Part shown: in pieces, positions 50,310 through 61,789 of the stretch
Layout of the letters: each line of letters opens with the position of its first letter
Numbering within the stretch: position 1 is the first letter of the stretch
Virus record (IMG/VR): IMGVR_UViG_3300045256_000653
Coordinates: 1 to 64,000 of that record
Source: a virus
Length of the DNA: 64,000 bases
Reading direction: 5' to 3' (one strand)
Position numbers and translations under genes: made by a program
The notes under the pieces: generated by a model
What the model was told of the DNA's origin: nothing
Database searches by the model: none
The model's input: the letters and a program-made list of their open reading frames with translations, nothing else

Positions 50310-50393
50310 GCCGGGGCTGAGCATGAGTGGGCTCACCTGACTGTAAATCAGGCGTCTCTGACCGTGGGGGTGCGAATCCCTCCCCCGGCACCA
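50310..50393 (+). tRNA. tRNA-Tyr(GTA), atypical D arm and T loop
   Basis: GCCGGGG/CCCCGGC-ACCA acceptor, CCTGA-CTGTAAA-TCAGG, T loop TGCGAAT. Confidence 0.75.
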
Positions 50394-51025: not shown

Positions 51026-51098
51026 TGCTCGGTAGCCAAGCAGGCAAGGCAGTGAGCTGTTAACTCACCTATCGCTGGTTCGAATCCAGCCCGAGCAG
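51026..51098 (+). tRNA. tRNA-Asn(GTT)
   Basis: Cloverleaf with loop CTGTTAA and G73. Confidence 0.9.
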
Positions 51099-55127: not shown

Positions 55128-55289
55128 GATCGCGCCCAGCAACCCGTGAAGCACACAAGCATCCCGCAAGGGATATGCAGGTTCGAATCCTGCTCCCCTC
55201 ACTTCTACGAGGGGATGGCGGAATTGGAAGACGCACTGGTATAAGGGACCAGCCGAAAGGCAGACTGCTACACACCCTCGGGCGCGATC
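55128..55289 (+). ncRNA. Y-RNA-like RNA A: circularly permuted tRNA-Leu(AAG)-like body on the conserved stem module
   Basis: Order is T arm, 3' acceptor, linker, 5' acceptor, D arm, anticodon arm. It is closed by GATCGCGCCC-AG / CT-C-GGGCGCGATC and carries ACAAGC. Confidence 0.8.
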
Positions 55290-55316
55290 TATTTTTCCTT
55301 TGAACGGACAAGGTAG

Positions 55317-55912: not shown

Positions 55913-55942
55913 CAAGCGGTGTATCTGAATAGGTAGAAATTC

Positions 55943-56016: not shown

Positions 56017-56134
56017 CCGGGCTGCTGTTCCGCAGCCCAACACACTTCCCACCTCGACTCTCTTCGGGGAGTCCGCACAGGGCGGTGTATTCACTTAATT
56101 CGGCGACGTGCGAAGCCGAGATCGGATCGGAACA

Positions 56135-58012
56135 ATGGCAAACGAGAATCTTGGACCCGCCGAGCGGATCATCAACTCTCTGCTCGCGTACACGGACCAC
56201 ATGGTCCACAACCGCCCGGGCGTGGTCATCCCGGATCGCCGCTTCAACACCGGCGTGCGCTGGCAATTCGTCACGCACAAGGAGGAAGGCGGCCAAAAGG
56301 TCGTCTACGCCCTCACGAAGGTGGGCAAGAAGACGACGAGGACCCGCCTTGGTGTGATGCAGCCGGATCGTAGCGTCGTCGAGAACGGCGCGAAGATCGG
56401 CGATTACCGCCCGGCCGGATACAACCGCGAGGCGGCTGCCTGGATGTACCGACAGGTCGCCGAGGTGTGGAAGCTCGACAACGAGTTCGCGGCCCGCTGG
56501 GCCTCGTACGCGTTCAAGAACGACAAGAACCGCGACCTCAAGGTCATTCTCTGCGCGTTCATGCTCGTTCAGAGCCGCCAAGGTGATCCGGTCAAGGGCG
56601 CCGATGGCAAGGTCGAATTCTTCGACGACGACTTCCGTGAGGTCGGTGAGGCGATGATCCTCAGCGACGAGAAGGGTGTCGAGCACTTCGACGCCAAGCT
56701 CCTCATCCGGGTGCGCGAGATCCTCTCGCTTCCGGAGATCGCGACCATCAACCGGGAACTCGGCTTCGGGCGCTCGACGCGCAAGGCGCCGCTCGGTCGT
56801 TGGGAGAAGGCGGTCACGCGGTGGCTCCAATACCGGGAGCGCAACCCGAAGATGCTCGAAGGTCTCGTCAAGGCGGGCCTTCGGAACAAGGTCGTGTCGC
56901 TCGCTCAGCAGGTCGGCTACAAGCCGGACTCGCCGAACTTCTACCGGATCCTCCGGTGGGAGCAAAACCAGGCGAAGGACGGTCACCGCCAGCTCGCGAT
57001 CGGCGAGGCAGTCGCTGCCGGGGAAACCTGGGAGGGCCTCACCGAGGAGCAGGTCTGCCAGCGCATCATGAAGGACAAGCCGAAGTGGAACCGTCTCGCG
57101 GTCATGCTCCCCAAGAGCACCGGGTTGACGAGGGCCATCATGGCAGCGGCGATCGAGGCGGGTTCCGTCTCGAACAAGGAACTCATCATCCTTTCGCCGA
57201 CGCTCGAAGAGCTTGGCCTTCTCCAAGTTCAGAACATCCGAGAGCGTTGGGAGCGTGCGCAGCGTGAGGCGGAAGACACTCGCGCGGCCAACGTCGCTCA
57301 ACGCATGAAGTCGAAGGAGGCGCAAGAGAAGCTCCAAGAGGCAGCCGACGTCGCGGTCCAAAAGGCCGTGGCCGAGGTCGTCAAGGGGATGCTCGTCTAC
57401 GTCTGCATCGACATCTCGGGATCGATGACGAACTCGATTCCGACCGCGAAGCAGTACATCGCGCAGTTCCTCCAGGGTTTCCCCCCGGAGCAGCTCGTCG
57501 TGTGCGTCTTCAACACGGTCGGACGCATCGTCACCATCAAGAGCCCGTCGAAGGCGGGCGTGGAGAATGCGTTCGCCGGCATTCAGGCGGGTGGTGGCAC
57601 CGATCACGGATCGGCCATTCGCACGATTGCCAAGCACCGCATGCCCACGGCGGACGAGGATGTCGTGATGATCTTCATCGGTGACGGTGGAGAGATCAAG
57701 ACGTTCGACTCCTCTCTGGCGGTCGATCACATCAAGCCGATGGCCTTCGGGTTCCTCCAGCTTCCTGGAGACAACTCGGGGTGCATCACCAACACGGCGG
57801 CTCGGCTGGGTATCCCGTGCTTCAACATCGACGAGGGAATCTTCGCGGACCCGTATGCGATTCCGCGTACGCTCCGTGCCCTCATCGCTGCAACCCCGGT
57901 GGGCCAAGCTCCCCGGACGCAGGCAGCTCCGCGCGTGTCTCTCGTGGACACGATTCAAAAGACGGCGCTACTCAAGAAGCCGGCATGGGCAACCGTGGTC
58001 GCAACAGCGTAA
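56135..58012 (+). CDS. Ro60/TROVE-like protein: helical N-domain plus C-terminal vWA
   Basis: vWA MIDAS motifs IDISGSM, GGGTD and FIGDG follow ~410 aa of basic helical sequence. Flanked by Y-like RNAs. The vWA call is firm and TROVE is inferred. Confidence 0.7.
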   Translation: MANENLGPAERIINSLLAYTDHMVHNRPGVVIPDRRFNTGVRWQFVTHKEEGGQKVVYALTKVGKKTTRTRLGVMQPDRSVVENGAKIGDYRPAGYNREAAAWMYRQVAEVWKLDNEFAARWASYAFKNDKNRDLKVILCAFMLVQSRQGDPVKGADGKVEFFDDDFREVGEAMILSDEKGVEHFDAKLLIRVREILSLPEIATINRELGFGRSTRKAPLGRWEKAVTRWLQYRERNPKMLEGLVKAGLRNKVVSLAQQVGYKPDSPNFYRILRWEQNQAKDGHRQLAIGEAVAAGETWEGLTEEQVCQRIMKDKPKWNRLAVMLPKSTGLTRAIMAAAIEAGSVSNKELIILSPTLEELGLLQVQNIRERWERAQREAEDTRAANVAQRMKSKEAQEKLQEAADVAVQKAVAEVVKGMLVYVCIDISGSMTNSIPTAKQYIAQFLQGFPPEQLVVCVFNTVGRIVTIKSPSKAGVENAFAGIQAGGGTDHGSAIRTIAKHRMPTADEDVVMIFIGDGGEIKTFDSSLAVDHIKPMAFGFLQLPGDNSGCITNTAARLGIPCFNIDEGIFADPYAIPRTLRALIAATPVGQAPRTQAAPRVSLVDTIQKTALLKKPAWATVVATA

Positions 58013-58024
58013 GGAGCAAATCAG

Positions 58025-58996
58025 ATGGGATGGAGGGACCTACTTCAAACAGGCGACGAGACCCTCGTCTCGCCGTGGGTTGGAGGCAGGTCCCTTCGTT
58101 CCGGTCCTCGCACCTGGACGATCGACGGCCGACTCCCTCGGGAGATGGGCTGGTACTCGTTCAAGCTCAACGGACGCCGGGCCACACTAAATGGTTCGGC
58201 CGATCCGGCGAGCGAGGGTTTCAGAGACGTGGTGCGGGGTTACCTGGTCGGCGACCGGCTCGTTCCGGACGGCGCTCGGGTCAACCCCGATCCCACCAAG
58301 ATCGCAGAGGCGACGGAGACCGTTCTCCTCGTTGACCGTGGGCTCGATCGATTCGTGCGGATTGCGGCGGGACGCCTCTTTGATGAGGGCCCGCTCATCT
58401 TCATGAACCAGGAGATGCCCGTTGGCCCCGAGGATGCGGTCAGCAACGCCTACCTTCGCCGGCTTCCTTCAGTGAGTGACATCGCCGGAGTGACCCCGGC
58501 CCTCGAAGCCGCCTTCCGCATGGAAGTGTGGCAGCGAGAAGAAGCCGAACGTCGGCGCCTCGAATTGGAGCGCCAGCGTCGGGAAGAAGAGGAACGCAGG
58601 CAGCGTGAGGAACGGCGCGAGCAGATGGCGCGCCAGCTCGGAACCGGTACCGGACGGCGGGAGATGGCCCTCGTGGACTTCGCCGAAGCCGCTCGTGCTG
58701 CGCTCCGGGTTGGAGGTGCCGAGTATCTCGACCACCGGGCATCGTACCGGCCGGGCGAGATGGTCGTCACCTTCCGGATGCTCAACCGAGCCTTCATGTG
58801 CACGTGCGACGAGAAGACGCTTCGCATCATCGATGCTGGCGTTTGCCTCGGGCACGGGGACGAGAGAGGGGACACGCGGTTCACTCTCGAATCCTTGCCG
58901 GCGGTGATCAACGAAGCTCACCGCACGCATCGATTGGTCGTTCTTCGTCACGTCGGCGATCAGGACGAACCTGATTGGAGGAACGATGACGATTGA
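58025..58996 (+). CDS. Putative E2-like (UBC-fold) protein with N-terminal domain and coiled coil
   Basis: C-terminal IIDAGVCL followed by the TLESLPAVI helix resembles the E2 G-x-x-C-L site. Operon context supports it. Confidence 0.5.
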   Translation: MGWRDLLQTGDETLVSPWVGGRSLRSGPRTWTIDGRLPREMGWYSFKLNGRRATLNGSADPASEGFRDVVRGYLVGDRLVPDGARVNPDPTKIAEATETVLLVDRGLDRFVRIAAGRLFDEGPLIFMNQEMPVGPEDAVSNAYLRRLPSVSDIAGVTPALEAAFRMEVWQREEAERRRLELERQRREEEERRQREERREQMARQLGTGTGRREMALVDFAEAARAALRVGGAEYLDHRASYRPGEMVVTFRMLNRAFMCTCDEKTLRIIDAGVCLGHGDERGDTRFTLESLPAVINEAHRTHRLVVLRHVGDQDEPDWRNDDD

Positions 58997-59393
58997 AGCT
59001 GGAGTTGTTGTGGGGCGCGACGGCGAGGAGGCTGTCTACTGGCATCTTCCTCCCAACAGGAACGTCGTCGCGCTCCCCGACAGCCGAGATCTTTGGGACG
59101 TCTTCTGGGAGAACAGGGATCGCATCTCTGGGTTCGCGCACAGCCATCCCGGGCTCGGCGTTCCCGGCCCCTCCTGGGAAGACCTCACGACATTCGCCGC
59201 CGTCGAAGGCGGTCTGGGTCGTCGCCTCAAGTGGTGGATCACGAGCATGAATGCCGTCTCGGTCCTCACGTGGAAGGGCCCGGGCAAGTACGACTACGAG
59301 CTGACCGTGCTCGACAAGGAACCGTCATGGATTCCGGAGCTACGGCGTCTCTCGCAGAACGAATCAACACCAAACGAGGAGCAGATACGATGA
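58986..59393 (+). CDS. JAB/MPN+ metallopeptidase
   Basis: N-terminal E, then AHSHP....PSWED (HxHx7-8Sx2D). Confidence 0.88.
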   Translation: MTIEAGVVVGRDGEEAVYWHLPPNRNVVALPDSRDLWDVFWENRDRISGFAHSHPGLGVPGPSWEDLTTFAAVEGGLGRRLKWWITSMNAVSVLTWKGPGKYDYELTVLDKEPSWIPELRRLSQNESTPNEEQIR

Positions 59394-59665
59394 CGATTCA
59401 GGAAAACGAGGCCCAGGTGAACATCACCTGGAACGGAACGAACTTCGAGCTTCCGGACCCGGTTCTCTTCGAGGCCGCAGACGGAGACCTCAAGCAGTGG
59501 GCGGCGGAAGCGATTCGCACGGGCTCGATCCCGGGCTTCGCGGCCGATCCGGCCGTGGACCTCCGGAATCACATCGTGGACCGCTTCCCGGCGCCGGCTC
59601 AGGCCGCGCCCGGCCAGCGTACCCACAACCTCATCCAGATTCGCCCGAAGACGGCATTCGGATGA
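59390..59665 (+). CDS. Ubiquitin-like (beta-grasp) protein
   Basis: 91 aa, beta-beta-alpha pattern, ends IRPKTAFG, ATGA-coupled between JAB and E1. Confidence 0.75.
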   Translation: MTIQENEAQVNITWNGTNFELPDPVLFEAADGDLKQWAAEAIRTGSIPGFAADPAVDLRNHIVDRFPAPAQAAPGQRTHNLIQIRPKTAFG

Positions 59666-60237
59666 AGACCGTGGTCATCGTCGGAGTCGGGGCGCTGGGT
59701 TCACACCTCGTGCCCTTGCTCCGGAACGTGGACGCCTCCGTCAAGGTGATCGACTTCGATCGCGTCGAGGCGAAGAACGTCCTCAGCCAGTTTCACGGCA
59801 AGCCGAATGTCGGGAAGCCCAAGGTGCTCTCTCTTCAGAGCACGATGAACTTCCTCTTCGGCAAGAAGATCGAGACCGTTCCCCACAAGCTCGTGGAGAA
59901 CAACGCCACCGAGCTTCTCGGCAAGGCTGATCTCGTCATCGACTGCCTCGACAACGGGGCAGCTCGCAGGATCGTCCAGGGCTTCGTTCGCAAGAACAAC
60001 ACCCCCTGTTTGCATGGGGCTGTCGATGCGAACGGCAGCTTCGGACGCATCGTTTGGGACGAGACGTTCGCAATCGACGACGAAGACAAGGCCGGTGCGC
60101 CCACCTGCGAAAACGGCGAGCACCTCACGTTCTTGTCGATCGTCGCTTCCTACCTGGCGCACGCGGCCAGGGAATTTCTCGTGAAGAATCGCAAGCTCGG
60201 GTATCAGGTGAGCCCGGGTGGGACTATTCTAACGTGA
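59662..60237 (+). CDS. E1/ThiF-family adenylating enzyme
   Basis: VGVGALGS, DFDRVEAKN..Q, K and DCLDN..R motifs, with candidate catalytic Cys in APTCE. Confidence 0.92.
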   Translation: MKTVVIVGVGALGSHLVPLLRNVDASVKVIDFDRVEAKNVLSQFHGKPNVGKPKVLSLQSTMNFLFGKKIETVPHKLVENNATELLGKADLVIDCLDNGAARRIVQGFVRKNNTPCLHGAVDANGSFGRIVWDETFAIDDEDKAGAPTCENGEHLTFLSIVASYLAHAAREFLVKNRKLGYQVSPGGTILT

Positions 60238-60298
60238 CCGCGCTTTTTTCTTAGCACCACGACCGGCGTCGGTGTAAACCAACGCCGGAAGTAACTCT

Positions 60299-60439
60299 GA
60301 GGGATATTGGCCGATGGCAGGCCGCGTGACGGTAACTCACGTGCATACGCACAATCAGGATTGCACTCTCGGACCTCGCAAGGGGCCCAGCTCCTCGTAG
60401 TCCTTACAAGCTTTCTAGGTTCGAATCCTAGGTCCCTCA
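60299..60439 (+). ncRNA. tRNA-like RNA B (GTA anticodon) with module in the variable loop
   Basis: GAGGGAT/GTCCCTC-A acceptor, CGTGA-CGGTAAC-TCACG, insert AGGATTGC..CTCGGACC..GGCCCAG..GTAGTCCT-TACAAGC, and T arm. Confidence 0.8.
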
Positions 60440-60442
60440 CTA

Positions 60443-60610
60443 CTTCGCGCCCAGCAAAACCCGAAAGACCTTACAAGCAAAGTATGCAGGTTCGAATCCT
60501 GCTGAGCCCACCAACGGAGGGTCAAACCTCCGGGGCCCATCGTCTAACGGATAGGACACTCGTTATTCAAACGAGCAATCGCAAACAGGTTTCTCAACTC
60601 GGGCGCGAAG
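60443..60610 (+). ncRNA. Y-RNA-like RNA C: circularly permuted tRNA-Glu(TTC)-like body
   Basis: CTTCGCGCCC-AG / CT-C-GGGCGCGAAG closure. T arm comes first, then internal ACCA, a linker hairpin, and a Glu-type D arm. Confidence 0.8.
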
Positions 60611-60662
60611 GAATTTTTTTCTGTCAGACCCATCTCGGGTCGTCGTCTCTGGAAACATCAAT

Positions 60663-60795
60663 GCCGATCAAGGGCCGTGGGGCCCACCTCTTTGTTAAAG
60701 AGCAACAAATCCTGCATTCACCCCTCGGACCTCGAAAGTGGTCCAGCCCCAACGAGTGCATACAAGCTTGCCAGGTTCGACTCCTGGGATCGGCG
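60663..60795 (+). ncRNA. tRNA-like RNA D (GTT anticodon) with module in the variable loop
   Basis: GCCGATC/GATCGGC-G acceptor, TGCATTC..CTCGGACC..GGTCCAG..GAGTGCA-TACAAGC. Confidence 0.8.
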
Positions 60796-60797
60796 CT

Positions 60798-60927
60798 GAG
60801 GCACCCAGCCTCCCGTAGTGCTCACACGCGAATAGCTCACTCTGGTAGAGCATCTGTTTCGAACACAGAAGGTCACGGGTTCAAATCCCGTTTCGTAACC
60901 AACCAGCATTACAATCTCGGGTGTCTC
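60798..60927 (+). ncRNA. RNA G: tRNA-like body (CGA anticodon, 60826-60901) enclosed by the module through its acceptor ends
   Basis: GAGGCACCC-AG..GTAGTGCT [tRNA] AGCATTAC..CT-C-GGGTGTCTC, followed by a T-tract. Confidence 0.75.
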
Positions 60928-60935
60928 TAATTTTT

Positions 60936-61063
60936 GCGGGTCAGGGCCGTGGGGCCCACTTTCCTCTCCAAGGAACAAACCAGCATGCGCCCTCGGGCCT
61001 CGAAAGGGGCTCAGCTCTCAAGCGTGCTCACAAGCTCGTCAGGTTCGACTCCTGAGACCCGCT
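60936..61063 (+). ncRNA. tRNA-like RNA E (TCC anticodon) with module in the variable loop
   Basis: GCGGGTC/GACCCGC-T acceptor, AGCATGC..CTCGGGCC..GGCTCAG..GCGTGCT-CACAAGC. Confidence 0.8.
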
Positions 61064-61126
61064 CTAACCCGTCATCGAGGCCGGCTGTCCCGCAAGGGCC
61101 TACCGACCTCGAGGCGCGTAAATTAT

Positions 61127-61273
61127 GGGGATGTTACAGAGGGATGGACCCTCGCCTGCCCACGAAGCAGGAGCGAAAGCTCAACCCAGGATCAAACCTC
61201 GGATCTCTTCACCGGGATCCAGCCCCCTCTCGGTCCTTACAAGCCCTCGGTTCGAATCCGAGACATCCCCCCA
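61127..61273 (+). ncRNA. tRNA-like RNA F (ACG anticodon) with module in the variable loop
   Basis: GGGATGT/ACATCCC-C-CCA acceptor, AGGATC..CTCGGATC..GATCCAG..GGTCCT-TACAAGC. Confidence 0.8.
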
Positions 61274-61324
61274 TCTTCTTCCCTCGCAGCTAGCCACCGC
61301 GAGGTGATCGTTTCGCACCGTTAT

Positions 61325-61400
61325 GGTGGGCGTAGCCTAGTGGTAAAGGCGGCGGGTTGTGGCCCCGCAGACGCGAGTTCAATTCTCGTCGCTCACCCCA
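61325..61400 (+). tRNA. tRNA-His(GTG)
   Basis: G-1/C73, loop TTGTGGC, CCA. Confidence 0.9.
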
Positions 61401-61426
61401 ATTTTTCTCCGGTGTAGGCGCCGCGC

Positions 61427-61789
61427 ATGCCGGAGAATTGCCCGAAATGCGGATTCTATCTTGGCGTCGAGCCAAACGTGGAGCTGGAGTGCGACACGCT
61501 CTATCAGCTCGTCACCAACGTGATCCGTCACGTCCGCATGACCGGCAGCAAGATCGTCTCCTCGGATGATCCGATGCGTCTTCGCATCGGTTTCGAGACC
61601 CTTCTTCTGACCGGTCCTCACGCCGCTCGGTGGTCGATCGGTATCGCTAAAGTGCGGGAGGTCAACTTGGCAGCGGCCGAAAGTGCGCAGCTCGCAGCTT
61701 ACATCCCCTTGCTTGCGACGGCCCAAGGAAGGCAACAGATCGCCGACCTTTGGAGTCTCGGTCAAGAGCCCTTTCTTGTTCGTGAATGA
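61427..61789 (+). CDS. Hypothetical protein
   Basis: ATG 10 nt after CGGTGTA, with CPKC. Confidence 0.6.
   Translation: MPENCPKCGFYLGVEPNVELECDTLYQLVTNVIRHVRMTGSKIVSSDDPMRLRIGFETLLLTGPHAARWSIGIAKVREVNLAAAESAQLAAYIPLLATAQGRQQIADLWSLGQEPFLVRE

What the first reader, a model, noticed from the sequence alone, without database searches (positions are those of the whole stretch)
60299..61273. A conserved, covarying ~70-nt module inserted in the variable loop of four different tRNA cloverleaves
RNAs B, D, E and F have acceptor, D, anticodon and T arms in normal order but are 128-147 nt long. Each insert has a helix that varies in sequence yet stays paired (AGGATTGC/GTAGTCCT, TGCATTC/GAGTGCA, AGCATGC/GCGTGCT, AGGATC/GGTCCT). 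It also has a pyrimidine-rich internal loop, an invariant CT[C]GG helix strand pairing with CCAG/TCAG, and ACAAGC just before the T arm. The GGTCCAG strand recalls the GGUCCGA Ro-binding strand of Y RNAs, but here the bulged C is on the opposite strand. Standard tRNA finders would probably miss these or call them pseudo- or intron-containing tRNAs.
Basis: seen in the sequence. Interest (0 to 1): 0.9.

Follow-up and report, generated by a model that had tools for sequence, protein, structure and literature searches.

The report
Handle-bearing tRNA mimics of huge phages
Four 128-147-nt RNAs in a huge phage's tRNA island are tRNA look-alikes with a conserved, covarying bulged hairpin in place of the variable loop. 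The same "handle" recurs in over 100 copies in related phages beside a very divergent Ro60-like gene, so they are most likely a new form of Y-RNA-type tRNA mimic, not working tRNAs or introns.

Summary
B, D, E and F fold as acceptor, D arm, anticodon arm, a 48-50-nt bulged hairpin, (Y)UACAAGC, T arm and acceptor. ARAGORN and the Rfam tRNA model both miss them.

A covariance model of the hairpin plus T arm finds more than 100 copies in 42 of 66 related huge-phage loci. 86.8% of cells are paired and 19 of 20 pairs show compensatory changes. 83 distinct copies have a perfect 7-bp acceptor stem at the expected distance.

The same handle also occurs opened at its tip, which gives a Y-RNA topology. 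It then carries either a circularly permuted tRNA body (55132-55285, 60447-60606) or a whole cloverleaf (60802-60923).

The nearby 625-aa vWA protein fails the TROVE HMM. Its N-terminal model, however, has Ro60 as its three best matches among 48,161 PDB chains (Z 10.7, 9.6, 8.5; the next is 6.1).

The Ro60-like gene, a ubiquitin-like enzyme set and these RNAs stay together down to 35% protein identity.

Best reading (about 0.5): a new variant of the Ro60/Y-RNA tRNA-mimic ribonucleoprotein. Binding and expression are untested. The RNAs are not members of Rfam YrlA.

The scan has noted this gene set before on other phage DNA.

The parts
60299..60439 (+). RNA B, closed-handle type (i). 7-bp acceptor; D arm; anticodon arm with loop CGGUAAC (GUA, with G33); small hairpin; handle 60357-60404 (outer helix 60357-60364 with 60397-60404, CUCGG, GCAA loop, CCAG); ACAAGC 60406-60411; T arm; discriminator A.
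   Evidence: MFE fold and z-score -2.55; R1 88.0 bits; not called by ARAGORN or Rfam tRNA.
60663..60795 (+). RNA D, type (i). Acceptor GCCGAUC/GAUCGGC; 5-bp D stem with a 4-nt loop; loop UUGUUAA (GUU); handle 60713-60760; ACAAGC 60762-60767; T arm.
   Evidence: MFE fold, z-score -3.35; R1 88.6 bits.
60936..61063 (+). RNA E, type (i). Acceptor GCGGGUC/GACCCGC; loop UCUCCAA (UCC, with C33); handle 60982-61028; ACAAGC 61030-61035; T arm.
   Evidence: MFE fold, z-score -2.60; R1 78.1 bits.
61127..61273 (+). RNA F, type (i). Acceptor GGGGAUG/CAUCCCC; loop CCACGAA (ACG, with C33); extra AGC-GAAA-GCU hairpin; handle 61188-61237; ACAAGC 61239-61244; T arm; CCA-like tail.
   Evidence: R1 58.7 bits. The MFE keeps the acceptor, anticodon and T arms but misfolds the handle; the handle helices were read directly from the sequence. 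The subfamily with the same extra hairpin recurs in L158, L127, L170, L157 and L182.
60447..60606 (+). Type (ii), a circularly permuted Glu-like body. Order: 5' GCGCCCAG, outer strand, UACAAGC, T arm, 3' acceptor strand, ACCA, hairpin, 5' acceptor strand, D arm, anticodon arm (UUC), outer strand, CUCGGGCGC 3'. A T-run follows at 60614-60620.
   Evidence: MFE closes the ends in an 8-bp helix with a bulged C, z-score -3.90. The same layout occurs in relatives with covarying terminal helices.
60802..60923 (+). Type (iii), a whole cloverleaf mounted on the opened handle. ARAGORN calls the cloverleaf tRNA-Ser(cga) at 60825-60901, but it has a short variable loop and a frayed acceptor. Order: CACCCAG, GUAGUGCU, CACACG, body, AGCAUUAC, CUCGGGUG. 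A T-run follows at 60930-60935.
   Evidence: MFE fold, z-score -2.25; Rfam tRNA 53.7 bits with acceptor mismatches; 31 such copies in relatives.
55132..55285 (+). Type (ii), a permuted Leu-like body (AAG loop) just after tRNA-Ile and upstream of the Ro60-like gene. The ends GCGCCCAG and CUCGGGCGC pair. A T-run follows at 55290-55296.
   Evidence: MFE fold, z-score -2.59; descriptor hits.
56135..58012 (+). 625-aa protein. The N-terminal 400 aa have a Ro60 (TROVE)-like helical-repeat fold. The C-terminal part is a vWA domain with an invariant MIDAS motif D426-x-S428-x-S430.
   Evidence: Pfam finds VWA_2 only; TROVE HMM gives no hit. VIA-align on 48,161 chains: the top 3 are Ro60 with Z 10.7, 9.6 and 8.5, and the next is 6.1. 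The best full-length Foldseek matches are Ro60. The ESM feature search gives TROVE clusters at 0.83. hhalign to a TROVE+vWA_Ro60 protein has 90% probability over the vWA domain plus about 70 residues upstream.
58025..60237 (+). Four co-directional genes: unknown 323 aa (58025-58996), JAB/MPN (58986-59393), a 91-aa Ubl-like protein ending AFG (59390-59665), and a ThiF/E1-like protein (59662-60237).
   Evidence: Pfam Prok-JAB and ThiF; ORFs; the gene order is kept in about 50-61 of 66 phage loci and in the distant clade.
60270..60276 (+). CGGTGTA motif 23 nt before the 5' end of RNA B, also present at 56083 before the Ro60-like gene. It is a candidate phage promoter element for the RNA array.
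   Evidence: 17 occurrences in the window against 3.4 expected; 0 of 100 shuffles reach 17.

Best explanation
These are non-decoding tRNA mimics of the Y-RNA kind.

- Anatomy: each RNA joins a tRNA-shaped body, with an intact T-loop/D-loop elbow and acceptor, to a conserved "handle". The handle is an outer helix, a G-poor internal loop with invariant CUC(G), an inner helix, and invariant (Y)UACA(A/C)GC next to the T arm.
- Inferred function: the handle is the docking site for the phage's own very divergent Ro60-like (TROVE-fold plus vWA) protein. The tRNA-like body engages tRNA-recognising factors such as processing or modifying enzymes, or host tRNA-targeting nucleases. The particle would then tether or gate those factors, or act as a decoy for them. 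It probably works together with the co-inherited ubiquitin-like enzyme set.
- Topologies: B, D, E and F have the handle closed by a tetraloop and the acceptor open. Sister RNAs have the handle open and the body closed, which is the classical Y-RNA topology. That the ends can sit in either place suggests the folded shape, not the position of the ends, is what is selected.
- Status of each step: the structure, its covariation, the three topologies, the Ro60-like fold and the conserved gene linkage are shown. Binding, processing and the biological role are inferred.
For: - Structure and covariation: 128 distinct sequences, 86.8% of cells paired against 59.5% in shuffles and 32-55% in slid controls; 19 of 20 pairs have double changes; 0 of 500 shuffles reach the observed covariation score or percentage paired.
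- Body: 83 distinct copies have a perfect 7-bp acceptor stem 45-63 nt upstream of the handle. T-loop GG-UUCGA-N-U-CC is about 100% conserved.
- Decoding features are relaxed. Only 51 of 82 anticodon loops have 7 nt and only 26 of those 51 have U33. In the window, 3 of the 4 RNAs lack U33.
- The bodies duplicate isoacceptors that the phage also encodes as normal tRNAs, for example Asn-GUU at 51026.
- Y topology: 19 of 28 permuted candidates have a perfect, covarying 6-bp terminal helix at a fixed spacing of 20-23 nt. A descriptor finds 27 permuted and 31 mounted copies, against 12-25 control hits. MFE folds agree.
- Protein: Ro60 gives the 3 best of 48,161 chains, the best full-length Foldseek matches, and the TROVE clusters in the ESM feature search.
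- Linkage: 42 of 66 Ro60-like loci have handles within 6 kb, and 7 of 10 others have them elsewhere in the record. All 8 handle-bearing contigs found from the RNA pattern alone carry the gene. 0.92 Mb of other pattern-matching viral loci gave handles in only 4 loci, all on contigs that carry the gene.
- Distant clade (35-39% identity): the RNAs keep CUCG and YACA(A/C)GC and lie directly after the Ro60-like gene. Rfam YrlA hits their tRNA-like core at 33-40 bits.
- Precedent: Y RNAs lie beside Ro60 genes and mimic tRNA, also in phages (PMC4201824, PMC12135203).
Against: - No RNA-seq run holds this DNA, so expression, ends and processing are unknown.
- No binding test is possible with these tools.
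- Sequence-level TROVE membership fails. Profile-profile comparison aligns only the vWA region plus a short upstream stretch. A Z of 10.7 on a helical repeat is moderate.
- The RNAs lack the known Ro-binding motifs.
- In one complete genome, six of seven copies lie 232 kb from the Ro60-like gene, in another tRNA island. Linkage therefore also follows tRNA arrays.
- The loci are related phages, so co-occurrence counts are not independent.
- The Ubl genes are just as tightly linked and could supply the true partner.
- Some bodies, such as the UCC type with loop CUUCCAC, look fully decoding-competent.
Confidence: 0.5

Rival explanations
1. The handle is recognised by another product of the conserved cluster, not by the Ro60-like protein. 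Candidates are the 323-aa unknown protein, or the E1/Ubl/JAB set acting as a sulfur relay or tagging system on tRNA-like RNAs, as in Urm1/Uba4 or TtuB/TtuC. A host factor is also possible.
For: The four genes keep their order next to the Ro60-like gene and the RNAs in about 50-61 of 66 loci and in the distant clade. In most close relatives the RNA array starts 100-250 nt after the E1 gene. E1/Ubl pairs that thiolate tRNA are established biology (own knowledge).
Against: In the distant clade the RNAs abut the Ro60-like gene and precede the other genes. No PP-loop thiolase or other RNA-binding domain was detected in the 323-aa protein. Of all the cluster's products, only the Ro60 family has a documented habit of binding stem-closed tRNA mimics (PMC4201824).
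Confidence: 0.2
2. B, D, E and F are working tRNAs with a giant extra arm. The arm would serve as an identity or protection element, for example against host anticodon nucleases or for a phage-specific enzyme.
For: Perfect 7-bp acceptors and canonical T arms. C follows the discriminator in 76 of 83 copies and CCA is encoded in 22 of 83. Position 37 is a purine in 47 of 51 loops, and some loops are fully canonical. Phage tRNAs that evade defence nucleases are known (own knowledge).
Against: U33 is present in only 26 of 51 seven-nt loops, and 31 of 82 loops are not 7 nt. D and E have a 5-bp D stem with a 4-nt loop and A8. The bodies duplicate normal phage tRNAs of the same anticodon. The same handle is carried by permuted bodies whose acceptor is sealed by a loop and cannot be charged.
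Confidence: 0.12
3. The handle is a processing or punctuation element of the tRNA operon. It would be a leader-trailer stem or nuclease entry site that is cut away, or an intron that is spliced out, leaving ordinary tRNAs or tRNA halves.
For: In type (iii) the two handle strands flank a complete cloverleaf like a leader and trailer. The window's type (ii) copy has an internal ACCA and a spacer hairpin, which RNase P and 3' trimming could remove. T-runs follow the Y-topology copies.
Against: Removing the hairpin from B, D, E or F still leaves about 20 nt of conserved linker including the invariant ACAAGC, so the product would not be a normal variable loop. I saw no bulge-helix-bulge motif at the junctions on inspection. 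Rfam finds no group I intron in the region, and 48-50 nt is far too short for one. Invariant single-stranded nucleotides and a covarying two-helix architecture kept down to 35% protein identity exceed what a cleavage stem needs.
Confidence: 0.08

Closest known systems
YrlA-type bacterial and phage Y RNAs with Ro60/Rsr (Rfam RF02553; Chen et al. 2014, PMC4201824; Thermus phage phiLo Ro60 with Yrl1/Yrl2, PMC12135203)
   Same: A small RNA that joins a protein-binding stem to a tRNA-like domain with conserved T and D arms. It is encoded beside a Ro60-type gene, also in phages with tRNA arrays. The window's type (ii) RNAs share the order T arm, acceptor hairpin, D arm, with the ends paired in a stem.
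   Different: - The stem leaves the body at the variable-loop position and a full anticodon arm is kept. In YrlA the stem replaces the anticodon arm.
- The conserved motifs are CUC(G) and UACA(A/C)GC, not GNCGAAN0-1G.
- Three circular permutations coexist, including an unpermuted cloverleaf.
- There are 5-10 copies per phage with different anticodon-like loops.
- The partner protein fails the TROVE HMM.
- A Ubl/E1/JAB set is always linked.
- The Rfam score is far below gathering (19 bits in the window; 33-40 bits in distant relatives).
Metazoan Y RNAs (Rfam RF00019) bound by Ro60
   Same: The ends pair in a helix with a bulged C, next to a pyrimidine-rich internal loop. A U-run follows the 3' strand in the Y-topology copies.
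   Different: No sequence match. The bulged C lies on the 3' strand. The GGUCCGA strand is absent as a conserved element. Metazoan Y RNAs carry no tRNA-like body.
Class II tRNAs (Leu, Ser, bacterial Tyr, Sec) with long variable arms
   Same: An extra helix emerges between the anticodon arm and the T arm of a cloverleaf.
   Different: Class II arms are about 10-24 nt. Here the region is 66-87 nt, with two helices, an internal loop and invariant flanking motifs. The bodies are not restricted to class II identities, and their anticodon loops are often non-canonical.
Circularly permuted tRNA genes of Cyanidioschyzon merolae and two-piece (permuted) tmRNA genes (own knowledge)
   Same: The 3' half of a tRNA-like fold is encoded upstream of the 5' half. 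The window's copy at 60447-60606 even has ACCA and a spacer between the halves.
   Different: Those cases yield a normal tRNA after circularisation, or a two-piece tmRNA. Here the permuted and unpermuted forms coexist as paralogues that share a non-tRNA handle.

Membership tests
YrlA (Rfam RF02553) | Covariance-model score at or above the gathering score of 69 bits | tested here: not met
   The best match in 60100-61500 scores 19.1 bits, E 0.58, and spans D plus the mounted tRNA. There are no gathering-level hits in 10 relatives. In the distant clade the core scores 33-40 bits over model positions 24-84 only.
YrlA (Rfam RF02553) | Permuted order T arm, acceptor-like hairpin, D arm, enclosed by a stem made of the RNA's 5' and 3' ends | tested here: inconclusive
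   Met by 55132-55285 and 60447-60606 and by 27 copies in relatives. Not met by B, D, E and F, the subject of the finding, whose order is unpermuted.
YrlA (Rfam RF02553) | Ro-binding stem replaces the anticodon arm; GNCGAAN0-1G motif near the 5' end (PMC4201824) | tested here: not met
   A full anticodon arm is kept and the stem leaves at the variable position. There is no GNCGAAG or GNCGAANG in 60299-61273. The only match in 55132-55296 is an internal CCGAAAGG hairpin.
Ro60 / TROVE protein family (partner protein) | Match to Pfam TROVE (PF05731) above its cut-off | tested here: not met
   Not listed even at E<=10. A six-frame search of the whole record finds nothing, while the control genomes do match.
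Ro60 / TROVE protein family (partner protein) | Helical-repeat ring domain with the Ro60 fold, followed by a vWA domain with MIDAS | tested here: met
   N-terminal model (pLDDT 82.7): 1yvp_A Z 10.7 over 279 residues, 2nvo_A Z 9.6, 9l5y_B Z 8.5, next chain Z 6.1. The best full-length Foldseek matches are Ro60, E 8.6e-7 over 556 columns. VWA_2 at residues 430-527. D426, S428 and S430 are invariant. This is similarity of fold only; Z is moderate for a repeat protein.
Ro60 / TROVE protein family (partner protein) | Binds Y RNA or misfolded RNA | not testable with these tools
   Needs EMSA, pull-down or a structure.
tRNA (Rfam RF00005 / ARAGORN) | Recognised by tRNA models; variable region of 4-24 nt | tested here: not met
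   B, D, E and F are absent from the ARAGORN and Rfam tRNA lists. The region between the anticodon stem and the T stem is 66-87 nt.
tRNA (Rfam RF00005 / ARAGORN) | 7-nt anticodon loop with U33 and a purine at 37 | tested here: not met
   In the window only D has U33; B has G33, and E and F have C33. In the family, 51 of 82 loops have 7 nt and 26 of those 51 have U33. Some members do meet the feature.
tRNA intron (archaeal bulge-helix-bulge, or group I) | BHB motif at both junctions, or a group I catalytic core | tested here: not met
   No 3-nt/4-bp/3-nt motif was seen at the handle borders on inspection. Rfam Intron_gpI gives no match in 60100-61500. The same helix is formed by free RNA ends in types (ii) and (iii).
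Metazoan Y RNA (Rfam RF00019) | Match to the family model; conserved GGUCCGA strand with the bulged C on the 5' strand | tested here: not met
   No match at E<=10. The strand opposite CUCG covaries freely. The bulged C lies on the strand that is 3' in the Y topology.

The most novel reading that the evidence does not exclude
The handle is a portable docking tag that loads any tRNA-shaped body onto a viral Ro60-like ring. Each huge phage then deploys a panel of isoacceptor-specific tRNA decoys or sensors. The linked Ubl/E1/JAB cascade modifies the particle or whatever it captures. This would be a previously unrecognised virus-encoded tRNA-surveillance or anti-defence machine that joins Ro/Y-RNA biology to ubiquitin-like tagging.
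Probability: 0.15. Interest if true: 0.9.

Novelty: new variant of a known kind. Interest (0 to 1): 0.78.

Why it matters
- Y RNAs and Ro60 are known in animals, bacteria and a few phages, but what they do outside a handful of species is unclear.
- This family is large. The partner protein has over 1,600 homologues, mostly on 200-660-kb phage contigs.
- Its RNAs are invisible to both the tRNA and the Y-RNA models, so huge-phage "tRNA islands" contain many unannotated non-tRNA genes.
- The three coexisting circular permutations are a natural experiment. They suggest that the folded shape, not the position of the ends, is what is selected.
- The fixed linkage to a ubiquitin-like enzyme set gives a concrete, testable lead on what a Ro-type particle does during infection.
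- Annotation pipelines would gain from a covariance model of the handle.

Tried and rejected
- RNA evidence: no RNA holder is listed for window:60250-61420.
- Megablast and blastn of the region against GenBank phages found nothing but a chance tRNA match.
- PHROGs gave no family for the Ro60-like, 323-aa, JAB or Ubl proteins.
- phmmer and hmmsearch against PDB sequences found generic vWA domains only.
- VIA-align on the full-length model was swamped by the vWA domain. The N-terminus was therefore folded alone.
- Foldseek on the N-terminal model was weak in PDB and BFVD. Ro60 and "Ro-like" entries were the only high-probability rows.
- hhalign against a 21-sequence Rsr profile aligned only the vWA region, 80% probability.
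- RtcB as a fixed neighbour is rejected. It is present in 2 of 5 near-complete genomes and lies beside the Ro60-like gene only in L122. A CCA-adding enzyme family is present in 2 of 5.
- The first MAFFT alignments put two copies one column out of register. This was corrected by realigning to the model.
- The loose first descriptor for Y-topology RNAs had a high background: 111 hits against 31-53 in controls. It was tightened.
- Broad Pfam annotation of 10 large window ORFs gave only two methyltransferase-type matches (one DUF6094, one DNA methylase).
- Burroughs & Aravind 2016 (PMC5062991) and Sim et al. 2020 (PMC10870794) are not held, so prior description there cannot be excluded.
Full report
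**Setting**

The window is the first 64 kb of a 78-kb IMG/VR virus record that CheckV rates 17% complete, so it is a fragment of a huge phage. Positions 50.3-63.8 kb hold 25 ARAGORN tRNAs. The finding lies in that island, directly after five co-directional genes:
- a 625-aa vWA protein (56135-58012);
- an unknown 323-aa protein;
- a JAB/MPN protein;
- a 91-aa protein ending in Gly;
- a ThiF/E1-like protein.

**Observation**

Each has a 7-bp acceptor, D arm, anticodon arm, long hairpin, a single-stranded stretch containing ACAAGC, T arm and 3' acceptor strand. For F (61127-61273) the MFE keeps the acceptor, anticodon and T arms but misfolds the handle; its handle helices were read from the sequence and are fitted by the model at 58.7 bits. 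Z-scores are -2.55 to -3.35.

The quoted outer helices pair as stated. So does CUCGG with CCAG or UCAG, with a bulged C. Three of the four hairpins end in a GNRA tetraloop. The pattern ACAAGC-N3-12-GGTTCGANTCC occurs five times in the window against 0.00 expected. Neither ARAGORN nor the Rfam tRNA model reports these four RNAs.

**The family**

I built a covariance model, R1, of the hairpin, ACAAGC and the T arm from the four window copies and two copies in a 497-kb relative. I searched it against 66 viral loci fetched with the vWA protein.
- It gave 271 matches. Over 100 had E<1e-4, and nearly all were on the strand of the vWA gene.
- 42 of the 66 loci hold at least one full-length copy within 6 kb. 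The median is 2 and the maximum 6.
- On 128 distinct sequences, 86.8% of cells pair, against 59.5% in column shuffles and 32-55% when partners are slid.
- 19 of 20 pairs show changes on both sides. No shuffle out of 500 reaches the observed covariation score or percentage paired.
- This alignment was fitted to the model. I therefore ran an alignment-free check: 83 distinct copies have a perfect 7-bp acceptor pairing 45-63 nt upstream of the handle.

Invariant positions are CUC(G) at the 5' shoulder of the inner helix, ACA(A/C)G before the T arm, and the T-loop GG-UUCGA-N-U-CC. The helices covary freely. The internal loop is G-poor. About 45% of the hairpins end in a GNRA loop.

The likeness to the vertebrate GGUCCGA strand is therefore coincidental.

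**Three topologies**

The stretch between B and D (60447-60606) reads, in order: GCGCCCAG, outer strand, UACAAGC, T arm, 3' acceptor strand, ACCA, a hairpin, 5' acceptor strand, D arm, UUC anticodon arm, outer strand, CUCGGGCGC, and then a T-run. This is the same molecule opened in the handle and closed at the acceptor. I recorded it, before consulting earlier notes.

Leads from those notes, which I then tested, added two more RNAs:
- a Leu-like permuted copy at 55132-55285;
- a whole cloverleaf, ARAGORN's "tRNA-Ser cga" at 60825-60901 with a short variable loop and a frayed acceptor, mounted between the two handle strands at 60802-60923.

All three fold that way without constraints, with z-scores of -2.25 to -3.90.

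Support from relatives:
- 19 of 28 candidates with the order T arm, acceptor hairpin have a perfect 6-bp terminal helix. Its sequence differs from phage to phage but always lies 20-23 nt before ACAAG.
- A tightened descriptor finds 27 permuted and 31 mounted copies. The reversed and opposite-strand controls give 25 and 12 hits, comparable to the 23 unclassified real hits.

The closed and permuted forms are related in a simple way. Reading across the junction of two tandem permuted units gives a closed-handle RNA (inference).

**The neighbouring protein**

Pfam sees only VWA_2. The TROVE HMM finds nothing in the record, while the control genomes do match.

Evidence for a Ro60-like fold:
- An AlphaFold2 model of residues 1-400 (pLDDT 82.7) was compared with 48,161 PDB representatives. 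The three best matches were Xenopus Ro60 (Z 10.7, 279 residues), D. radiodurans Rsr (Z 9.6) and phage phiLo Ro60 (Z 8.5). The next chain scored 6.1.
- The best full-length Foldseek matches are also Ro60, over 507-572 columns.
- A language-model feature search of the N-terminus returns TROVE clusters, at a sub-threshold score of 0.83.
- hhalign to a myxobacterial TROVE+vWA_Ro60 protein reaches 90% probability, but only over the vWA half plus about 70 residues upstream.
- The MIDAS residues are invariant.

I read the protein as a very divergent Ro60 relative by fold and architecture, at roughly 80-85%. It is not a member by sequence model.

**Linkage**

- The order Ro60-like, 323-aa, JAB, Ubl, E1 is kept in about 50-61 of the 66 loci. 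The RNA array usually begins 100-250 nt after E1 or lies just upstream of the Ro60-like gene.
- Of ten records with no handle in the flanks, seven have handles elsewhere in the record.
- All eight handle-bearing contigs recovered from the RNA pattern alone carry the gene. 0.92 Mb of other pattern-matching viral loci gave handles in only four loci, all on such contigs.
- A scan of 185,579 prokaryotic genomes found 37 loci, mostly contigs binned to Myxococcota. The closer ones carry handles.
- A distant clade, at 35-39% identity on contigs binned to Verrucomicrobiota and Leptospirales, escapes R1. It nevertheless shows Y-topology RNAs with the same CUCG and YACA(A/C)GC motifs, placed directly between the Ro60-like gene and the next gene. 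Rfam YrlA touches their tRNA-like core at 33-40 bits.

Against a simple operon picture, one complete 436-kb genome keeps six of its seven copies in another tRNA island, 232 kb away.

**Are they tRNAs?**

Tails are tRNA-like. C follows the discriminator in 76 of 83 copies, and CCA is encoded in 22. Decoding features are relaxed:
- 51 of 82 anticodon loops have 7 nt, and only 26 of those have U33.
- In the window only D has U33.
- D and E have a 5-bp D stem with a 4-nt loop.
- The bodies repeat anticodons that the phage also encodes as ordinary tRNAs.
- The permuted forms have sealed acceptors.

I therefore rate decoding as unlikely for the family as a whole, though it is not excluded for some members.

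**Comparison with known systems**

Chen et al. 2014 (PMC4201824) showed that Y RNAs beside bacterial and phage Ro60 genes carry a tRNA-like domain. The phiLo study (PMC12135203) showed that a phage Ro60 binds two neighbouring Y-like RNAs and host PNPase.

The present RNAs work like that family in design, but they are not members.
- Rfam YrlA scores 19 bits against a gathering score of 69.
- The GNCGAA motif is absent.
- The stem leaves at the variable position and an anticodon arm is kept.
- Three permutations coexist.
- A Ubl/E1/JAB set is always attached.

I found no description of this in the searchable literature. Two key papers were not held.

Earlier notes of this scan describe the same gene set on other phage DNA, and analogous handle-tagged RNAs beside Ro60-like genes in other phage groups.

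**Verdict**

The most likely reading (about 0.5) is a new variant of the Ro60/Y-RNA tRNA-mimic particle, in which B, D, E and F are the closed-handle permutation. Binding, expression and function are inferred. No RNA data exist for this DNA.

Noticed in passing
window 56135-60237: A five-gene cluster: Ro60-like, unknown 323 aa, JAB, 91-aa Ubl-like protein ending AFG, and ThiF/E1. The gene order is conserved in about 50-61 of 66 huge-phage loci and in a clade at 35-39% identity. It is a ubiquitin-like cascade permanently coupled to the RNA array.
   Followed up: partly
window 60270-60276, 56083-56089, 55917-55923, 61410-61416 and 13 other sites: CGGTGTA occurs 17 times against 3.4 expected, often just upstream of genes or RNAs. 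One site lies 23 nt before RNA B and one lies before the Ro60-like gene. It is a candidate phage promoter element.
   Followed up: partly
window 55286-55296, 60607-60620, 60924-60935; the same feature in relatives: Y-topology RNAs are followed by a semi-conserved GAYC-N2-4-U3-7 tail, set 6-8 nt after the terminal helix. It could be a terminator, or a single-stranded 3' end.
   Followed up: no
window 61067-61125: A stable hairpin with a GCAA loop (MFE -26.9 kcal/mol) lies between RNAs E and F. It fits none of the three RNA classes.
   Followed up: no
window 50310-50390: An 81-nt Rfam tRNA match (39.9 bits) that ARAGORN does not call. It may be another atypical tRNA-like gene at the start of the array.
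   Followed up: no
L143:11913-12005 (497-kb relative): A bacterial small SRP RNA match above gathering (57.7 bits against 40) lies directly after the handle-RNA array of a huge phage.
   Followed up: no
L115:1948-2178 (complete 436-kb relative): A group I intron (76.6 bits) lies inside the phage tRNA array. In the same genome the Ro60-like gene contains one in-frame TGA.
   Followed up: no
L226:2544-2977; L219:8195-8240: In the distant clade there is a GOLLD-like RNA match (91 bits, below the gathering score of 150) in the tRNA array. An Acido-Lenti-1 RNA match above gathering (40.8 against 37) lies between the Ro60-like and the next gene.
   Followed up: no
L192-L217 (genome contigs): Nearly all close cellular-genome hits of the Ro60-like protein are on contigs binned to Myxococcota, including an isolate assembly of Paraliomyxa miuraensis (799-kb scaffold). 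This may be a hint to the host, or a sign of prophage or chromosomal copies.
   Followed up: partly
L122:1702-3141: RtcB lies 2.9 kb upstream of the Ro60-like gene in one 377-kb phage. No other of the 66 loci keeps it there.
   Followed up: yes
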